A DNA stretch of 64,000 bases from NCBI RefSeq assembly GCF_038871235.1, contig NZ_JAVZIN010000001.1, positions 32,001-96,000 on the forward strand, written 5' to 3'. A program made the translations under genes and the position numbers. The notes under the pieces were generated by a model that saw only the letters and a program-made list of their open reading frames with translations, ran no database searches and was not told the origin of the DNA. Positions 47,538-51,941 of this stretch are shown here, in pieces (within the stretch, counting starts at the first letter, position 1; each line of letters starts with the position of its first letter). Source of the DNA: Candidatus Hadarchaeum sp. (GTDB lineage Archaea > Hadarchaeota > Hadarchaeia > Hadarchaeales > Hadarchaeaceae).

Positions 47538-50252
47538 GTTTATACTATCGTTTGAAGCTACTGAAACCACGCAGTGCTGAAATAGGGCAAGAAAGGGGGA
47601 TTTTTAGCGCCCGCTGCTGGCTGCGATTTTGGGATCTCACCAGTGTGGACATTCGAGTTCTGCCTTTTCACAGACCAAGCTTTCTGAACACATAGTACTT
47701 TGGGAAATCGATGGCTAACGTGAACGCGGCAGAGAATACCAAGACAAAAGCAACCTCCAGTGCCGTGACGGGCGGGATGATTAATCCATACACGCCCAAC
47801 AGCGCAAATCCAGCTGTTGCACCGATGCTGGAAATGAGAAGCTCCCTGCCGGGTCTTGAGTGCCAGAAGTGCCCTCTTTCTCTCACGATGTAAACTCTGA
47901 ACACACTTGTGAACACGAGAGCCAACATAACAAGGGTCTGTAGAGCGGCCGGCGGCAAGCGGAAATAACTCGTGCCGACAAACACAATTATGCCACCTTC
48001 TATTACGAGTAAGAGCCCAACCAAAAGAGACGCTAGGAAGATGTTCTTAACATTCCACAGATTCGGGCTGATCGTGCTCTTGGAGTTGTCCGTCGCAAGC
48101 GACATCGTCACGAAGTCGTTTGCGAATATCAGCAAAACCATGCCCAATGCGGTGAGCAAAAAATCGTGTAACCAGAAGAAGCCCAAGACCAGCAATCCTA
48201 TGAATTGAATCACCTTGCTGATCTTGTTCAGCACCCACGTGAGCATGCGCTGGTAGATCTGCCTGCTGGTCTTTGTCGCGTCGATTATTCCTTTCATTCC
48301 CGGTTCGGTCAGGACTATGCTCGACGAGACCTTTGCCACGTCGGTAGAGTTGCTCACCGCTATGCCGACTTCGGCCTGCTTCAATGCGGGGGAATCGTTC
48401 ACACCGTCGCCGGTCATCCCGACAACGTAGCCTTTGGATTGCAGGAGCCTGACGATTCTATACTTGTCCTCGGGATATATCTCAGCGAAGCCATCGTATT
48501 CCTCTATGATTTTTGACTGCTCTTCTTCACTTAGTCCTCTCAGATCAGGCATTCGGACGATCTTGTCCCCAATGGAAACCTGCCGAGCTACCTCCTTGGC
48601 TATCGCGATGTTATCCCCGGTCAGCATCTTCACCGCTATGCCTAGCCCTTTTAGCTCCTCTATGATTTCTTTTGAATCGGGCCTTGGAGGGTCGGCCAGC
48701 GGCAGCAGACCCACGAGCTGAAGATTGTCGAAGTCGGCTCCTCGGGACCTAGCTACCGCTAGAGTTCTGTAACCCTTTGAAGACAACTCAAGCACGAGTG
48801 GATCAATTTTACTGCAGGACTCTGGATCCGTCTCTTGACATAGTGATGCTATCACTTGCGGGGCACCCTTGACCACTTTGAAGCGATGCCCTTCATGTTC
48901 GACTATCGCCTCCGATCTCTTCGTTGTCGGGTCAAAAGGCGTGAACGAAATCTGCTTGTATCTGGTCATCTCGGCGCCAACAGATTTTGCGTGCTCGATG
49001 ACGGTGATGTCTATGAGGTCTCCAGTTTCAGCTCTGGATGCCAGGCTTGCCATGAGCGCAACGTCATCTTTCTTGAATTCCGAGAAAGGCATGCAATCGA
49101 AAACTGATAGCTTGTTCTGAGTGATTGTCCCCGTTTTGTCCAGGCACAGTACCTCCATGGATGCCGCGTCTTCGATTGAACTAAGCTTGGTCACGAGGAT
49201 CTTCTTCTTTGATAGTTCAATTGCGCCCGCCGCGAGGACCACCGCGAAAACGGCCGGCAACGCCACCGGGACCGCTCCCATCAGGAAAACTAATGTGAAT
49301 GTCAGTATCATCATAATGTCTGTATGCAATAGGGCAGCGTACGCGACAACTAGAATCAGCGCAGCCACGCCGACGTACATGCTGTACTTTACGACGGCCA
49401 TCATTACTTGCTGCTGATGGGACTTGGGCCCGGCTGTCCTCACTAGTTCTGCGGTCCTGCCAAAGTACGTTTTCGCTCCGGTGGCGATTACGACGCACTT
49501 CGCGTCCCCACTTTTTACTATGGAGCTGGAGTATACGATGTCGGACTTGCGAGCCTTTACTGGTAGAGATTCCCCAGTAAGGGCTGATTGATCCAGAGTA
49601 ACTTCATCATCGCTTATTATTTTGGCGTCAGCTGGCACCAAGTCGCCGAGACCAATGGCGATTACGTCCCCAGGGACTAGCTCCCTTGCAGGGATTGTCA
49701 CTAACTTACCATCTCGCATGACTTTTGCCTTGACCGCTAACCGCTGCTTCAACAGTTCCAGCGCTTTTCGAGAACTGCGAGAATGCCAGAATCCTATCAA
49801 CGCGTTTATCGTGAGCAGCGAGAATATCACCAAGAACTCGAGATAATGAGCAGAAATGTACGAAAGCACCATAGCAAATTCCAATAGCCAAGGCATAGGT
49901 CCCCAGTAGCGAGACAGAAAGTCCAAGGCGGGGCTTCTCTCCTTTTCCATCACCTCGTTGAATCCGAATTTGTTTAACCTTTCATTGGCCTGGGCACCGG
50001 TGAGGCCGTTAGCCGAAGTCTCTAATAGGCGTATTGTTTCTTCGACGGAGATGCTCTTGAAATCGGATGTTCCTGTGGGTTTCAAGAAATCATGCCCCCC
50101 ACTTTTTGTATTTCACCTGAAGAAGCCTTTGCAAAAGTTTGTCATAAAGCATTCGACTTCTAAAAATAGCCGTTGAGGCAAGGAATTACATGACTTTGCC
50201 TAAAATCTGCCTAAATCTTGCTCAGTTGGTCGTTGAAGAATGGTGCGGGGGA
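47522..50252. mobile_element. Putative integrated segment carrying the H+-ATPase gene, bounded by a 12-bp direct repeat of the tRNA-Leu 3' end
   Basis: TGGTGCGGGGGA at 47522-47533 and 50241-50252; no integrase inside. Confidence 0.5.
47668..50085 (-). CDS. Plasma-membrane-type proton-efflux P-type ATPase (P3A)
   Basis: WGPMPW, TGES, PVALP, DKTGT, KGAP, DPPR, TGD and GDGVND. Confidence 0.93.
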   Translation of the reverse strand: MKPTGTSDFKSISVEETIRLLETSANGLTGAQANERLNKFGFNEVMEKERSPALDFLSRYWGPMPWLLEFAMVLSYISAHYLEFLVIFSLLTINALIGFWHSRSSRKALELLKQRLAVKAKVMRDGKLVTIPARELVPGDVIAIGLGDLVPADAKIISDDEVTLDQSALTGESLPVKARKSDIVYSSSIVKSGDAKCVVIATGAKTYFGRTAELVRTAGPKSHQQQVMMAVVKYSMYVGVAALILVVAYAALLHTDIMMILTFTLVFLMGAVPVALPAVFAVVLAAGAIELSKKKILVTKLSSIEDAASMEVLCLDKTGTITQNKLSVFDCMPFSEFKKDDVALMASLASRAETGDLIDITVIEHAKSVGAEMTRYKQISFTPFDPTTKRSEAIVEHEGHRFKVVKGAPQVIASLCQETDPESCSKIDPLVLELSSKGYRTLAVARSRGADFDNLQLVGLLPLADPPRPDSKEIIEELKGLGIAVKMLTGDNIAIAKEVARQVSIGDKIVRMPDLRGLSEEEQSKIIEEYDGFAEIYPEDKYRIVRLLQSKGYVVGMTGDGVNDSPALKQAEVGIAVSNSTDVAKVSSSIVLTEPGMKGIIDATKTSRQIYQRMLTWVLNKISKVIQFIGLLVLGFFWLHDFLLTALGMVLLIFANDFVTMSLATDNSKSTISPNLWNVKNIFLASLLVGLLLVIEGGIIVFVGTSYFRLPPAALQTLVMLALVFTSVFRVYIVRERGHFWHSRPGRELLISSIGATAGFALLGVYGLIIPPVTALEVAFVLVFSAAFTLAIDFPKYYVFRKLGL

Positions 50253-50348
50253 GGGGATTTGAACCCCCGAACTCCTTCGAGACCAGCCCCTCAAGCTGGC
50301 GCCTTAGGCCGGCTTTTGAGACCATTGACCTGGCTAGGCTACCCCCGC
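50241..50348 (-). tRNA. tRNA-Leu(GAG) with a 20-nt intron at 21/22 (50305-50324)
   Basis: GCGGGGG/CCCCCGC acceptor stem, CCAGC-TTGAGGG-GCTGG arm, long variable arm, CCA; removing the BHB-like insert gives an 88-nt tRNA. Confidence 0.93.
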
Positions 50349-51284: not shown

Positions 51285-51383
51285 TGGCGCCCTTCGGCAG
51301 AGCTATTGCTCCTTGGCCGGGATTTGAACCCGGGGCGGAGCCTCGACAGGGCTCCATGTTAGACCGGGCTACACCACCAGGGC
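51285..51383 (-). tRNA. tRNA-Asp(GTC) with a 21-nt intron at 68/69 in the acceptor stem (51293-51313)
   Basis: GAGCC-CTGTCGA-GGCTC arm; BHB excision restores GCCCTGG/CCAGGGC plus G73 and CCA. Confidence 0.9.
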
Positions 51384-51536: not shown

Positions 51537-51660
51537 CGGTTGGCAGCGAACCGGGCTTCCCTTTGGCTTGCGCACAAAAGTACAACCCGATACGCAGGCG
51601 AGCTTGACTTCCGGGATCTGACGAGACCGGGTATTTCCTCGCCGCTATGGCCGCCAACCG
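51537..51660 (-). rRNA. rrf: 5S rRNA, not linked to 16S/23S
   Basis: CGGTTGGCGGCCATAGCGG...CCCGG...GAAGTCAAGC...GTACT...GGGAA...CGCTGCCAACCG with complementary termini, about 124 nt. Confidence 0.92.
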
Positions 51661-51696
51661 AAATTATTGTTGTCCACTCAGTTTTAAAAGCTTGTG

Positions 51697-51833
51697 TGGT
51701 CCCGCGGGGGAGAGTTTCAGCGGCTTAATCCGCGTTTGAACTCCCGACATTTACCGGAATCCTCTAGATTCTGTCGGTTTCAGCGCGGTTTGGGTCTACA
51801 GCCGACCACTCTACCAGGCTGAGTTACCGCGGG
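51697..51833 (-). tRNA. tRNA-Tyr(GTA) with three introns: 37/38 (51779-51795), 43/44 (51751-51772), 59/60 (51714-51734)
   Basis: C1-G72 acceptor stem CCCGCGG/CCGCGGG-A-CCA; removing 17+22+21 nt gives a canonical 77-nt cloverleaf. Confidence 0.9.
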
Positions 51834-51941
51834 ACCGTTTAAGAATCTGGAATCTCCGTTATTAAGGTTTAACCTCTGCACTTACGAGTCTCATCTTCAG
51901 AAAAGATTGGTTTATAAAGTAGTGAGGAGACCTCATAGACG

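What the first reader, a model, noticed from the sequence alone, without database searches (positions are those of the whole stretch)
51697..51833. Triple-intron tRNA-Tyr (37/38, 43/44, 59/60)
Seen: the 137-nt gene reduces to a canonical 77-nt tRNA-Tyr after removing three inserts. The 59/60 intron is a strict BHB (TTCA/TGAA helix, bulges AAC and ACT, GCGG/CCGC stem). The 43/44 intron has an ACCG/CGGT helix, bulges ACA and AAA and a GAATC/GATTC stem. The 37/38 intron is relaxed (CTGT/GCTG with a T-T mismatch). The exon between introns 1 and 2 is only 6 nt, and the two motifs compete for ACCG, which implies ordered splicing. Known: triple-intron tRNAs are described mainly in Thermoproteales such as Thermofilum. 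Inference: gene content here (dnaK operon, MtaA, CofE) does not look Thermoproteales-like, so five introns in three neighbouring tRNAs suggest another intron-rich lineage with a broad-specificity splicing endonuclease.
Basis: partly seen in the sequence, partly recalled or inferred. Interest (0 to 1): 0.75.

Follow-up and report, generated by a model that had tools for sequence, protein, structure and literature searches.

The report
Three-intron tyrosine tRNA gene, Hadarchaeum
This is a genuine tyrosine tRNA gene of a hot-spring archaeon (Hadarchaeum) that is interrupted by three short introns, a known but uncommon kind of gene, found here in a lineage whose splicing enzyme looks like the simple type thought to cut only standard introns.

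Summary
Window 51697-51833 (minus strand) gives a canonical 77-nt tRNA-Tyr(GUA) with encoded CCA once 17, 22 and 21 nt are removed after positions 37, 43 and 59 (ARAGORN; my own BHB and cloverleaf solver). The unspliced gene is missed by ARAGORN and Rfam.

Relatives confirm the junctions. The same mature tRNA is encoded by genes with 0, 1, 2 or 3 introns, at four sites: 35/36, 37/38, 43/44 and 59/60. Exons are almost invariant while introns drift, and the BHB helices are kept, with some compensatory changes.

The organism is a Hadarchaeum, phylum Hadarchaeota, not Thermoproteales. The genome is intron-rich: 26 of 41 located tRNA loci carry inserts, and both tRNA-Gln genes also have three introns.

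EndA is a single 179-aa gene, colinear with the alpha4 enzyme of M. jannaschii. It lacks the specificity loops of A. pernix and ARMAN-2.

Kaneta et al. 2018 already linked an alpha4 EndA in Hadesarchaea to increased tRNA gene disruption. This is therefore a new member of a known kind. No RNA evidence could be obtained.

The parts
51697..51833 (-). tRNA-Tyr(GUA) gene with three introns, 137 nt, encoded CCA at 51697-51699
   Evidence: Spliced form called tRNA-Tyr(gta) by ARAGORN. Solver solution. It is the only locus in the genome that matches the mature sequence.
51796..51833 (-). Exon 1: positions 1-37 (38 nt; the D loop has one extra base), containing the anticodon GTA
   Evidence: 100% BLAST match of the mature form. 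Identical in 5 genomes of the genus apart from one D-loop indel.
51779..51795 (-). Intron 1, 17 nt, at the canonical 37/38 site. Relaxed motif: 3 of 4 central pairs (U33 mismatched), anticodon stem as outer helix, no inner helix.
   Evidence: Absent in the intronless orthologue of G038 (L099).
51773..51778 (-). Exon 2, 6 nt: positions 38-43
51751..51772 (-). Intron 2, 22 nt, at 43/44. HBh' motif: 4-bp central helix ACCG/CGGT, inner stem of 5-6 bp, no outer helix.
   Evidence: The site is empty in many relatives, where CCGAC is directly followed by ATGTC.
51735..51750 (-). Exon 3, 16 nt: positions 44-59
51714..51734 (-). Intron 3, 21 nt, at 59/60 in the T loop. Strict hBHBh' motif.
   Evidence: All 4 central pairs and 4 inner pairs are kept in 11 of 11 distinct copies. 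The site is empty in relatives, which have an uninterrupted TTCAAAT loop.
51697..51713 (-). Exon 4, 17 nt: positions 60-73 plus CCA
51859..51865 (-). A/T-rich TTAATAA box 26-32 nt upstream of the gene; possible archaeal TATA box (inferred, not tested)
   Evidence: Read directly from the sequence
51538..51658 (-). 5S rRNA gene directly downstream, in the same Tyr-5S-Asp arrangement as in relatives
   Evidence: Rfam RF00001, 93.6 bits. Synteny.
51285..51383 (-). tRNA-Asp(GUC) gene with a 21-nt intron at 68/69 (51293-51313) in the 3' acceptor strand, and encoded CCA
   Evidence: Solver: H4 h'5 h2, 3' end CCA. ARAGORN and Rfam read it as a 75-nt gene with two acceptor mismatches.
50244..50348 (-). 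tRNA-Leu(GAG) gene with one intron of 20-22 nt in the D arm
   Evidence: Rfam alignment with a 28-nt D-loop insert. Solver.

Best explanation
The stretch is the single, functional tRNA-Tyr(GUA) gene of a Hadarchaeum archaeon.

It is transcribed as a precursor of about 137 nt carrying three protein-spliced (bulge-helix-bulge type) introns, after positions 37, 43 and 59. The genome's only splicing endonuclease is a 179-aa EndA of alpha4 architecture. It cuts in the 3-nt bulges, and the RtcB ligase joins the exons. The product is a 74-nt tRNA body plus encoded CCA.

The 59/60 motif is strict and independent of the other two.

The 43/44 motif (HBh') and the 37/38 motif (hBH, with a U33 mismatch) use the same bases, C39-G41, so they cannot form at the same time. 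The predicted precursor fold presents the 43/44 and 59/60 motifs first. The most likely order is therefore 43/44 and 59/60 first, then refolding of the anticodon stem and removal of the 37/38 intron.

What is shown: the gene structure, the junctions, conservation, the enzyme inventory and the mutual exclusivity of the two motifs.

What is inferred: transcription, actual cleavage by EndA, the order of cuts, and that this alpha4 enzyme accepts relaxed motifs.
For: **Spliced product.**
- The joined exons are a canonical tRNA-Tyr.
- The solver recovers the same three cuts.
- C1-G72 and A73 are present, read from the sequence. That these are archaeal Tyr identity elements is recalled knowledge.

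**Single copy.** This is the only locus matching the mature sequence in the genome.

**Junctions confirmed by relatives.**
- G038 has an intronless orthologue that is 59 of 74 identical, and its T-stem differences come as paired changes.
- G019 encodes, with one intron, the same mature sequence that G002 encodes with three.
- Each of the three sites is empty in several relatives, exactly at the predicted junction.

**Constraint on exons.** Across the 10 pairs of the 5 genus copies, exons differ at 4 of 744 aligned positions. Introns differ at 13 of 170, 33 of 226 and 24 of 211.

**BHB geometry across distinct copies.**
- 59/60: central pairs 11 of 11 at all four positions. Inner pairs 1-4 are kept in 11 of 11, with a C-G to T-A change in 2 copies.
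- 43/44: central pairs 2-4 in 9 of 9. Inner pairs 1-3 in 9 of 9, with A-T, G-T and G-C at inner pair 2.
- 37/38: outer helix 21 of 21, and central pairs 1, 3 and 4 in 21 of 21.

**Enzymes.**
- One EndA gene with both Pfam domains.
- Y115, H125 and R149 are invariant and K156 nearly invariant in 30 sequences.
- RtcB is present at 601.7 bits.

**Folding.**
- The precursor MFE shows the 43/44 and 59/60 motifs. Its z-score against shuffles is -3.38.
- The ensemble with the 43/44 helix forced is more stable than with the anticodon stem forced: -55.8 against -47.6 kcal/mol at 37 C, and -23.7 against -20.6 at 70 C.
Against: - No RNA evidence exists for the mature or intermediate forms.
- In the predicted folds of the intermediates that still hold intron 1, that intron pairs with the D-arm region instead of presenting its motif. 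Thermodynamics therefore does not by itself produce the 37/38 substrate.
- The 37/38 and 43/44 motifs are relaxed forms. The literature says alpha4 and alpha'2 enzymes cut such forms poorly or not at all (PMC5829648, passages read).
- The EndA here has no insert relative to the M. jannaschii enzyme.
- Splice sites can slide by one base where the intron's first base equals the first base of the next exon, as at 43/44.
- My solver is home-made and was checked only on this genome and on G038.
Confidence: 0.9

Rival explanations
1. The gene is a decaying pseudogene. The inserts are not removed, and tyrosine decoding is served by another gene that is split, permuted or unassembled.
For: - ARAGORN and Rfam do not find the unspliced gene.
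- The genome is only 94.75% complete, in 16 contigs.
- My census located 41 tRNA loci, fewer than a full set.
Against: - No other locus matches the mature tRNA-Tyr.
- The exons are nearly invariant in five genus genomes while the introns change.
- The cloverleaf is perfect after splicing.
- The same architecture occurs in independent assemblies.
Confidence: 0.03
2. The gene is real, but the endonuclease is not a plain alpha4 enzyme. A divergent structural (beta) subunit or a second nuclease, missed here, supplies the ability to cut relaxed and non-canonical motifs.
For: - Published work ties relaxed-motif cleavage to (alpha-beta)2 or epsilon2 enzymes with specific loops (PMC5829648, PMC3488258; passages read).
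- Beta subunits can be very divergent: PAE0789 matches this EndA only at E 8e-4.
- About 5% of the genome is missing.
Against: - phmmer with all filters off, run against 9964 six-frame ORFs, finds only the EndA itself. The next hit has E 2.7.
- PF01974 finds one true gene. The second match, at E 0.096, is a LigD primase-polymerase.
- Of 31 family genomes, 28 have exactly one match, 1 has two near-equal full-length copies and 2 incomplete genomes have none.
- The same query detects the beta subunits of M. kandleri, N. equitans and P. aerophilum in the PDB, so a typical beta would have been seen.
Confidence: 0.12
3. The intron boundaries or their number differ from the model. For example, intron 1, exon 2 and intron 2 might be handled as one unit, or the sites might be shifted by a few bases.
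For: - One-base sliding is possible at 43/44, where A follows on both sides.
- BHB-like motifs are frequent by chance: 146 candidates in 267 nt.
- For two relatives (L011, L024) the solver also offered a single long anticodon-loop intron that gives C37.
Against: - Removing the 6-nt exon would delete the 3' strand of the anticodon stem.
- The only alternative solution scores 40.0 against 50.5.
- Relatives with empty sites fix each junction.
- The nested two-intron solutions for L008, L011, L016, L022 and L092 restore the same anticodon loop as in all other copies.
Confidence: 0.04

Closest known systems
Multiple-intron tRNA genes of Thermoproteales (Pyrobaculum, Thermofilum, Caldivirga; Sugahara et al. 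2007/2008, cited in PMC8450103 and PMC4090602, passages read)
   Same: - Up to three BHB-type introns per gene.
- Canonical and non-canonical positions are mixed.
- Relaxed hBH and HBh' motifs occur.
- Introns lie so close that one must be removed before the next motif can form.
- Intron density is high. Here it is 33 introns in the 36 genes I could solve. The published figure for Thermoproteales is 0.84 per gene (PMC8450103).
   Different: - The host is Hadarchaeota (kingdom Methanobacteriati), not Thermoproteota.
- The endonuclease is a single alpha4-like gene without the Crenarchaea-specific loop, not an (alpha-beta)2 enzyme.
Hadesarchaea archaeon YNP_N21 in Kaneta et al. 2018 (PMC5829648)
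   Same: - Same class of archaea.
[quoted passage not shown]
   Different: - The paper attributes an 'L3' loop to these enzymes. In my alignments the loop between the catalytic Tyr and His has the same length here as in M. jannaschii EndA, and is 5 residues shorter than in ARMAN-2.
- Only 1 of the 30 sequences, a Nanohaloarchaeon, shows an insert there.
- I could not see the paper's Figure 7, and the supplement held no Hadesarchaea text. I therefore cannot say how L3 was defined for that genome.
- No individual Hadesarchaeal tRNA gene is described in the passages I read.
Intron-rich tRNA gene sets of Asgard Atabeyarchaeia and Freyarchaeia (PMC11291895, passage read)
   Same: A lineage outside Thermoproteales in which most tRNA genes have introns, often at non-canonical positions, and in which many genes have several.
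   Different: - A different phylum.
- A higher load is reported there: 92-95% of genes, against about 63% of located loci here.
- According to Kaneta et al., Asgard EndAs carry the L1 loop (passage read). This EndA does not.
M. jannaschii EndA (PDB 1A79), the alpha4 homotetramer
   Same: - One HMMER stretch covers residues 15-179 against 9-171, with two one-residue gaps, at E 1.1e-36.
- Both Pfam domains are present.
- The catalytic Tyr, His and Lys are conserved.
   Different: - The M. jannaschii enzyme serves a genome with few, canonical introns (recalled). This one must serve relaxed and non-canonical motifs.
- Tetramer formation was not shown here.

Membership tests
Archaeal tRNA-Tyr gene | Canonical cloverleaf with anticodon GUA after intron removal | tested here: met
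   ARAGORN on the coordinate-joined exons gives tRNA-Tyr(gta), 77 bases. The solver score is 50.5, against 46-49 for the intronless genes scored.
Archaeal tRNA-Tyr gene | C1-G72 pair and A73 discriminator (archaeal and eukaryal Tyr identity; this knowledge is recalled) | tested here: met
   Read from the sequence: the 5' end is CCCGCGG and the 3' end CCGCGGG followed by A and CCA.
Archaeal tRNA-Tyr gene | A mature spliced RNA exists in cells | tested here: inconclusive
   Four RNA-labelled runs, kept as contigs, gave no contig joined at the predicted splice junctions of this gene.
Archaeal BHB tRNA intron (strict hBHBh') | Two 3-nt bulges separated by a 4-bp helix and flanked by two helices | tested here: met
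   Intron 3 (59/60): H4, h'4, h5, kept in 11 of 11 distinct copies.
Archaeal BHB tRNA intron (strict hBHBh') | The same feature, tested for introns 1 and 2 | tested here: not met
   Intron 1: 3 of 4 central pairs and no inner helix. Intron 2: no outer helix. These are the relaxed hBH and HBh' forms. U33 is paired in only 7 of 21 distinct copies.
Archaeal BHB tRNA intron | Cleaved by EndA and ligated by RtcB | not testable with these tools
   Both genes are present.
Thermoproteales-type multi-intron tRNA system | Two or three introns per gene, including non-canonical sites | tested here: met
   Tyr, Gln(CUG) and Gln(UUG) have three introns. 6 genes were solved with two.
Thermoproteales-type multi-intron tRNA system | Heterotetrameric (alpha-beta)2 EndA with the Crenarchaea-specific loop | tested here: not met
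   There is a single EndA gene. A. pernix alpha has 9 extra residues where this protein has none.
Thermoproteales-type multi-intron tRNA system | Host belongs to the Thermoproteales | tested here: not met
   The closest EndA loci are Hadesarchaea and Hadarchaeum MAGs at 89-91% identity. Lineage.
alpha4 EndA | One gene of about 180 aa with N- and C-terminal EndA domains and the catalytic Tyr/His/Lys | tested here: met
   PF02778 at 76.2 bits and PF01974 at 114 bits. Y115 and H125 are invariant and K156 is at least 90% conserved.
alpha4 EndA | No second EndA-like subunit in the genome | tested here: met
   28 of 31 family genomes have one match. The genome is 94.75% complete, so absence is not absolute.
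alpha4 EndA | Assembles as a homotetramer | not tested
   No usable result was obtained; see Tried and rejected.

The most novel reading that the evidence does not exclude
A plain alpha4 EndA, with no L1, L2 or L3-like insert and no partner subunit, is sufficient to process strict, relaxed (hBH, HBh'), non-canonical and nested BHB introns.

If so, the rule that broad specificity needs a specific loop or an (alpha-beta)2 or epsilon2 architecture is not general.

In addition, tRNA introns are being gained and lost quickly inside one genus without any change of enzyme architecture. There are four intron configurations of tRNA-Tyr among eight genomes of the genus, and four sites in the family. One of them is an intron inside the anticodon at 35/36 that borrows part of the 37/38 intron as its outer helix.
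Probability: 0.45. Interest if true: 0.6.

Novelty: new member of a known kind. Interest (0 to 1): 0.4.

Why it matters
**Annotation.** Standard tools miss this essential gene. ARAGORN and Rfam do not find tRNA-Tyr or the two tRNA-Gln genes, and they mis-end tRNA-Asp. Hadarchaeota MAGs would therefore look as if they lacked tRNAs.

**Enzymology.** A loop-less alpha4 EndA sits beside many relatively relaxed and non-canonical introns. An intron-poor relative of the same order (G038) has an EndA with no insert relative to this one in the alignment. Together they give a clean natural test of what really sets EndA substrate range.

**Evolution.** Intron sites are present or absent among closely related genomes. 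This offers material for studying how archaeal tRNA introns are gained and lost.

None of this changes the known picture of archaeal tRNA splicing. It extends that picture to another phylum.

Tried and rejected
**RNA evidence.** The look-up of sequencing runs listed 20 runs that hold part of the stretch. The 4 RNA-labelled ones held only 0.04-0.09 of the sampled words. Laying those four (X17-X20, all kept as contigs) gave pieces over the conserved 5' exon, the 5S gene and tRNA-Asp. The listed joints skip 433, 153 and 109 nt and do not correspond to the introns. This gives no evidence either way.

**Homotetramer prediction.** The job with four copies of EndA and alignment A1 returned 'no answer': score 0.37 against a mark of 0.42. 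It is not used.

**ARAGORN with its intron option.** On the unspliced gene it finds nothing. On the whole genome it mis-assigns many intron-containing genes, for example by calling Trp, Stop or Phe where my solver or the orthologue alignment finds Leu(GAG), a Gly-like gene or Arg. I did not use its isotype calls.

**A wrong first reading of mine.** I first read window 50244-50348 as tRNA-Ser(UGA). The Rfam alignment and the solver show the anticodon GAG, so it is Leu.

**Limits of the solver.**
- It could not resolve 5 long loci: C1:111720, C2:136948, C6:45465, C4:29590 and a Phe-like 3' half near C1:18026.
- It left the anticodon of C12:16129 ambiguous, CTT by orthology against GCT by motif.
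- In the tRNA-Tyr comparison it failed, or gave doubtful answers, for L020, L021, L024 and L098. These were left out of the pair tables. L018 was used for its first intron only.

**Supplement of Kaneta et al. 2018.** It held no text on Hadesarchaea.

**Rfam hit counts per genome as a proxy for intron load.** These are only rough, and the list was truncated.

Full report
**1. What is in the sequence**

On the minus strand, window 51833 to 51697 reads as a 137-nt gene. It has a 7-bp acceptor stem, a D arm, and an anticodon stem-loop holding GTA, followed by interrupted downstream parts.

ARAGORN and the Rfam tRNA model do not report it, even at E up to 10.

I cut out 17 nt after position 37, 22 nt after position 43 and 21 nt after position 59, and joined the four exons (38, 6, 16 and 17 nt) by coordinate. 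The result is 77 nt, which ARAGORN calls tRNA-Tyr(gta) with a regular cloverleaf and encoded CCA.

- 59/60: TTCA/TGAA helix, bulges AAC and ACT, GCGG/CCGC stem.
- 43/44: ACCG/CGGT helix, bulges ACA and AAA, GAATC/GATTC stem.
- 37/38: CTGT/GCTG helix with a T-T mismatch.

**2. An independent test**

I wrote a search that does three things:
- It lists every cut compatible with bulge-helix-bulge geometry: a 4-bp central helix H, 3-nt bulges, an inner helix h' and an outer helix h.
- It tries all combinations of up to three cuts.
- It keeps those that leave a canonical cloverleaf.

In the 267-nt region it found 146 BHB-like candidates but only 2 complete solutions.
Its score of 50.5 is above the 46-49 scored by the genome's intronless tRNA genes.
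- The other scores 40.0.

By its measures:
- The 59/60 intron is a strict hBHBh' motif (H4, h'4, h5).
- The 43/44 intron is HBh' (H4, h'6, and effectively no outer helix).
- The 37/38 intron is hBH (H3 with U33 unpaired, no inner helix, and the anticodon stem as outer helix).

Two of the three motifs are therefore relaxed, not one.

**3. Comparative evidence**

A DNA search of 40 relatives found the Tyr-5S-Asp region in many of them. I read the tRNA-Tyr gene in 35 fetched copies, some of them duplicates.

The mature sequences are nearly the same everywhere, but the genes hold different numbers of introns.
- An order-level relative (G038) has no intron at all. Its gene is 59 of 74 identical to the spliced form here, and its T-stem differences come as paired changes.
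- Most copies from the other families of the order have only a 12-14-nt 37/38 intron.
- Family members have two or three introns.
- G019 encodes, with one intron, exactly the mature sequence that G002 encodes with three.

Every one of the three sites is empty in several relatives, precisely at the predicted junction.

The family has four sites in all. The fourth, 35/36, lies inside the anticodon. It is a strict motif (H4, h'4-5, h4). Its outer helix pairs bases 26-29 with G37 plus the first three bases of the 37/38 intron, so it has to be removed first. No copy has all four introns.

Within the window's own genus there are four configurations:
- 37+43+59 in five genomes, including the window's own.
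- 35+37+59 in G004.
- 37+59 in G003.
- 37+43 in G005.

**4. Constraint**

Across the 10 pairs of the five genus copies with the same configuration:

| Region | Differences | Aligned positions |
|---|---|---|
| Exons | 4 (all from one D-loop indel) | 744 |
| Intron 1 | 13 | 170 |
| Intron 2 | 33 | 226 |
| Intron 3 | 24 | 211 |

I tabulated base pairs by their fixed distance from the splice sites, so no alignment was needed.
- 59/60: all four central pairs and inner pairs 1-4 are kept in 11 of 11 distinct copies. There is a C-G to T-A exchange at inner pair 2 in two copies, and G-C to G-T at inner pair 3.
- 43/44: central pairs 2-4 and inner pairs 1-3 are kept in 9 of 9, with A-T, G-T and G-C at inner pair 2. 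Central pair 1 is kept in only 5 of 9.
- 37/38: the outer helix and central pairs 1, 3 and 4 are kept in 21 of 21. Central pair 2 (U33) is paired in only 7 of 21. The relaxed form is therefore the rule in this order, not a local defect.

Copies L020, L021, L024 and L098 could not be solved cleanly and were left out. L018 was used for its first intron only.

**5. Is it the working gene?**

The mature sequence matches only this locus in the 1.2-Mb genome, which is 94.75% complete. The G038 tRNA-Tyr used as a query finds nothing else either.

The tRNA has C1-G72 and A73. I recall these as the archaeal Tyr identity set.

An A/T-rich TTAATAA box lies 26-32 nt upstream. That it is the promoter is an inference.

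**6. The organism and its tRNA set**

The EndA gene's closest loci are MAGs labelled Hadesarchaea or Candidatus Hadarchaeum. The three closest are 89-91% identical, and one of them is Ca. Hadarchaeum yellowstonense. The NCBI lineage is Hadarchaeota; Hadarchaeia; Hadarchaeales; Hadarchaeaceae. It is not Thermoproteales.

Rfam finds 34 tRNA genes in the genome, many of them over-long. With my solver and with G038 tRNAs as guides I located 41 loci:
- 15 have no intron.
- 12 were solved with one intron.
- 6 were solved with two.
- 3 were solved with three: Tyr, Gln(CUG) at C1:12253-12382 and Gln(UUG) at C1:10316-10447.
- 5 are long and unsolved.

That makes 33 introns in 36 solved genes. Of these, 14 are at 37/38 and 19 elsewhere: 8/9, the D loop, 22/23, 29/30, 30/31, 32/33, 33/34, 43/44, 53/54, 59/60 and 68/69.

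For comparison, the tRNAscan-SE 2.0 paper gives 0.84 introns per gene for Thermoproteales and 0.21 for archaea overall. It also says archaeal tRNA genes hold up to three introns (PMC8450103, passages read).

My census is home-made and incomplete, so the figures are approximate.

The intron-poor G038 has 43 Rfam tRNA hits. Among the 39 of its genes that I solved, 6 have an intron, 5 of them at 37/38.

**7. The enzymes**

The genome has one EndA gene: 179 aa, next to a 376-aa ORF that I did not annotate, with Pfam domains PF02778 and PF01974.
- The second weak PF01974 match is a LigD-type primase-polymerase.
- phmmer without filters against 9964 six-frame ORFs finds no paralogue; the next hit has E 2.7.
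- The same query does detect known beta subunits in the PDB.
- Among 31 genomes of the family, 28 have one match, one has two near-equal copies and two incomplete ones have none.

Against solved structures:
- The protein is colinear with M. jannaschii EndA (1A79).
- It lacks the 9 residues of the A. pernix Crenarchaea-specific loop.
- It lacks the 5 extra residues that ARMAN-2 has between the catalytic Tyr and His.

In an alignment of 30 EndAs, 17 of them Hadarchaeota-related including G038's, only a Nanohaloarchaeon has an insert in that loop. Y115, H125 and R149 are invariant and K156 is nearly so.

RtcB is present at 601.7 bits.

By architecture this is therefore the alpha4 type.

**8. How it most likely works**

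The precursor is cut by EndA in the six bulges and sealed by RtcB.

C39-G41 serve two roles. They are part of the anticodon stem, which is the outer helix of the 37/38 motif. They are also part of the central helix of the 43/44 motif. The two substrates are therefore mutually exclusive; this is read directly from the sequence.

Folding results:
- The predicted minimum-energy fold of the whole precursor shows the 43/44 and 59/60 motifs.
- Forcing the 43/44 helix gives a more stable ensemble than forcing the anticodon stem: -55.8 against -47.6 kcal/mol at 37 C, and -23.7 against -20.6 at 70 C.
- The spliced form folds into the cloverleaf at 37 C.

I therefore expect 43/44 and 59/60 to go first and 37/38 last. 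This is an inference.

The weak point is that predicted folds of the intermediates that keep intron 1 pair that intron with the D-arm region instead of showing its motif.

**9. What is known**

- Multi-intron tRNA genes with close, order-dependent introns are described for Crenarchaeota and Thaumarchaeota (PMC8450103; PMC4090602).
- Very intron-rich sets are reported for Asgard Atabeyarchaeia and Freyarchaeia (PMC11291895).
- Kaneta et al. 2018 (PMC5829648; passages read) predicted tRNA genes for Hadesarchaea archaeon YNP_N21. [quoted passage not shown]
- The L3 loop is the one holding the catalytic His (PMC3488258).
- In my alignments this genome's EndA has no insert there relative to M. jannaschii. 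I could not see how the paper defined L3 for Hadesarchaea: the figure is not held, and the supplement has no such text.
- Full-text searches for Hadesarchaea or Hadarchaeota together with tRNA intron terms found no paper describing individual Hadarchaeal tRNA genes.

**10. Verdict**

The gene is a new member of a known kind, in a lineage already flagged in print as intron-rich.

The parts worth following are:
- The loop-less alpha4 EndA facing relaxed and nested motifs.
- The fast turnover of intron sites among close relatives.
- The 35/36 intron in relatives that depends on the 37/38 intron.

No RNA evidence could be obtained.

Noticed in passing
window 51285-51383 (-): tRNA-Asp(GUC) has a 21-nt intron at 68/69 (51293-51313) in the 3' strand of the acceptor stem, followed by GGGC, G73 and CCA. 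ARAGORN and Rfam report a 75-76-nt intronless gene that reads into the intron, with two acceptor mismatches.
   Followed up: partly
window 50244-50348 (-): tRNA-Leu(GAG) with one intron of 20-22 nt in the D arm. ARAGORN with its intron option miscalls it tRNA-Trp.
   Followed up: partly
L008, L011, L016, L022, L092 (tRNA-Tyr of relatives G017, G004, G014, G013, G009): These copies have an intron of 19-23 nt inside the anticodon, at 35/36. It is a strict BHB whose outer helix pairs bases 26-29 with G37 plus the first three bases of the 37/38 intron. This leaves a 2-nt exon (AG) between two introns, so the 35/36 intron must be cut and ligated before the 37/38 motif can form.
   Followed up: partly
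G000:C1:12253-12382 (+) and G000:C1:10316-10447 (+), outside the window: Both tRNA-Gln genes also have three introns: D loop, 32/33 and 59/60 in one, and D loop, 53/54 and 59/60 in the other. Neither is among the Rfam tRNA matches at E up to 0.001 or the ARAGORN calls.
   Followed up: partly
G038 (same order, family f4), e.g. L099/L144 and L061: This order-level relative is intron-poor. It has 43 Rfam tRNA hits, mostly of standard length, and its tRNA-Tyr has no intron. Yet its EndA is 59% identical to this one and shows no insert relative to it in alignment A1. Intron load therefore differs without a visible change of enzyme architecture.
   Followed up: partly
G000:C12:16129-16237 (+), outside the window: A Lys-like tRNA body with two inserts. 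The best BHB-guided cut gives anticodon GCT, while orthology with G038 suggests CTT. No clean BHB was found for the CTT solution.
   Followed up: no
window 51659-51696 (-) and relatives L004-L007: A conserved TTTTAAAA box sits between tRNA-Tyr and the 5S rRNA gene, about 30-37 nt before the 5S start. It suggests that the 5S gene has its own promoter.
   Followed up: no
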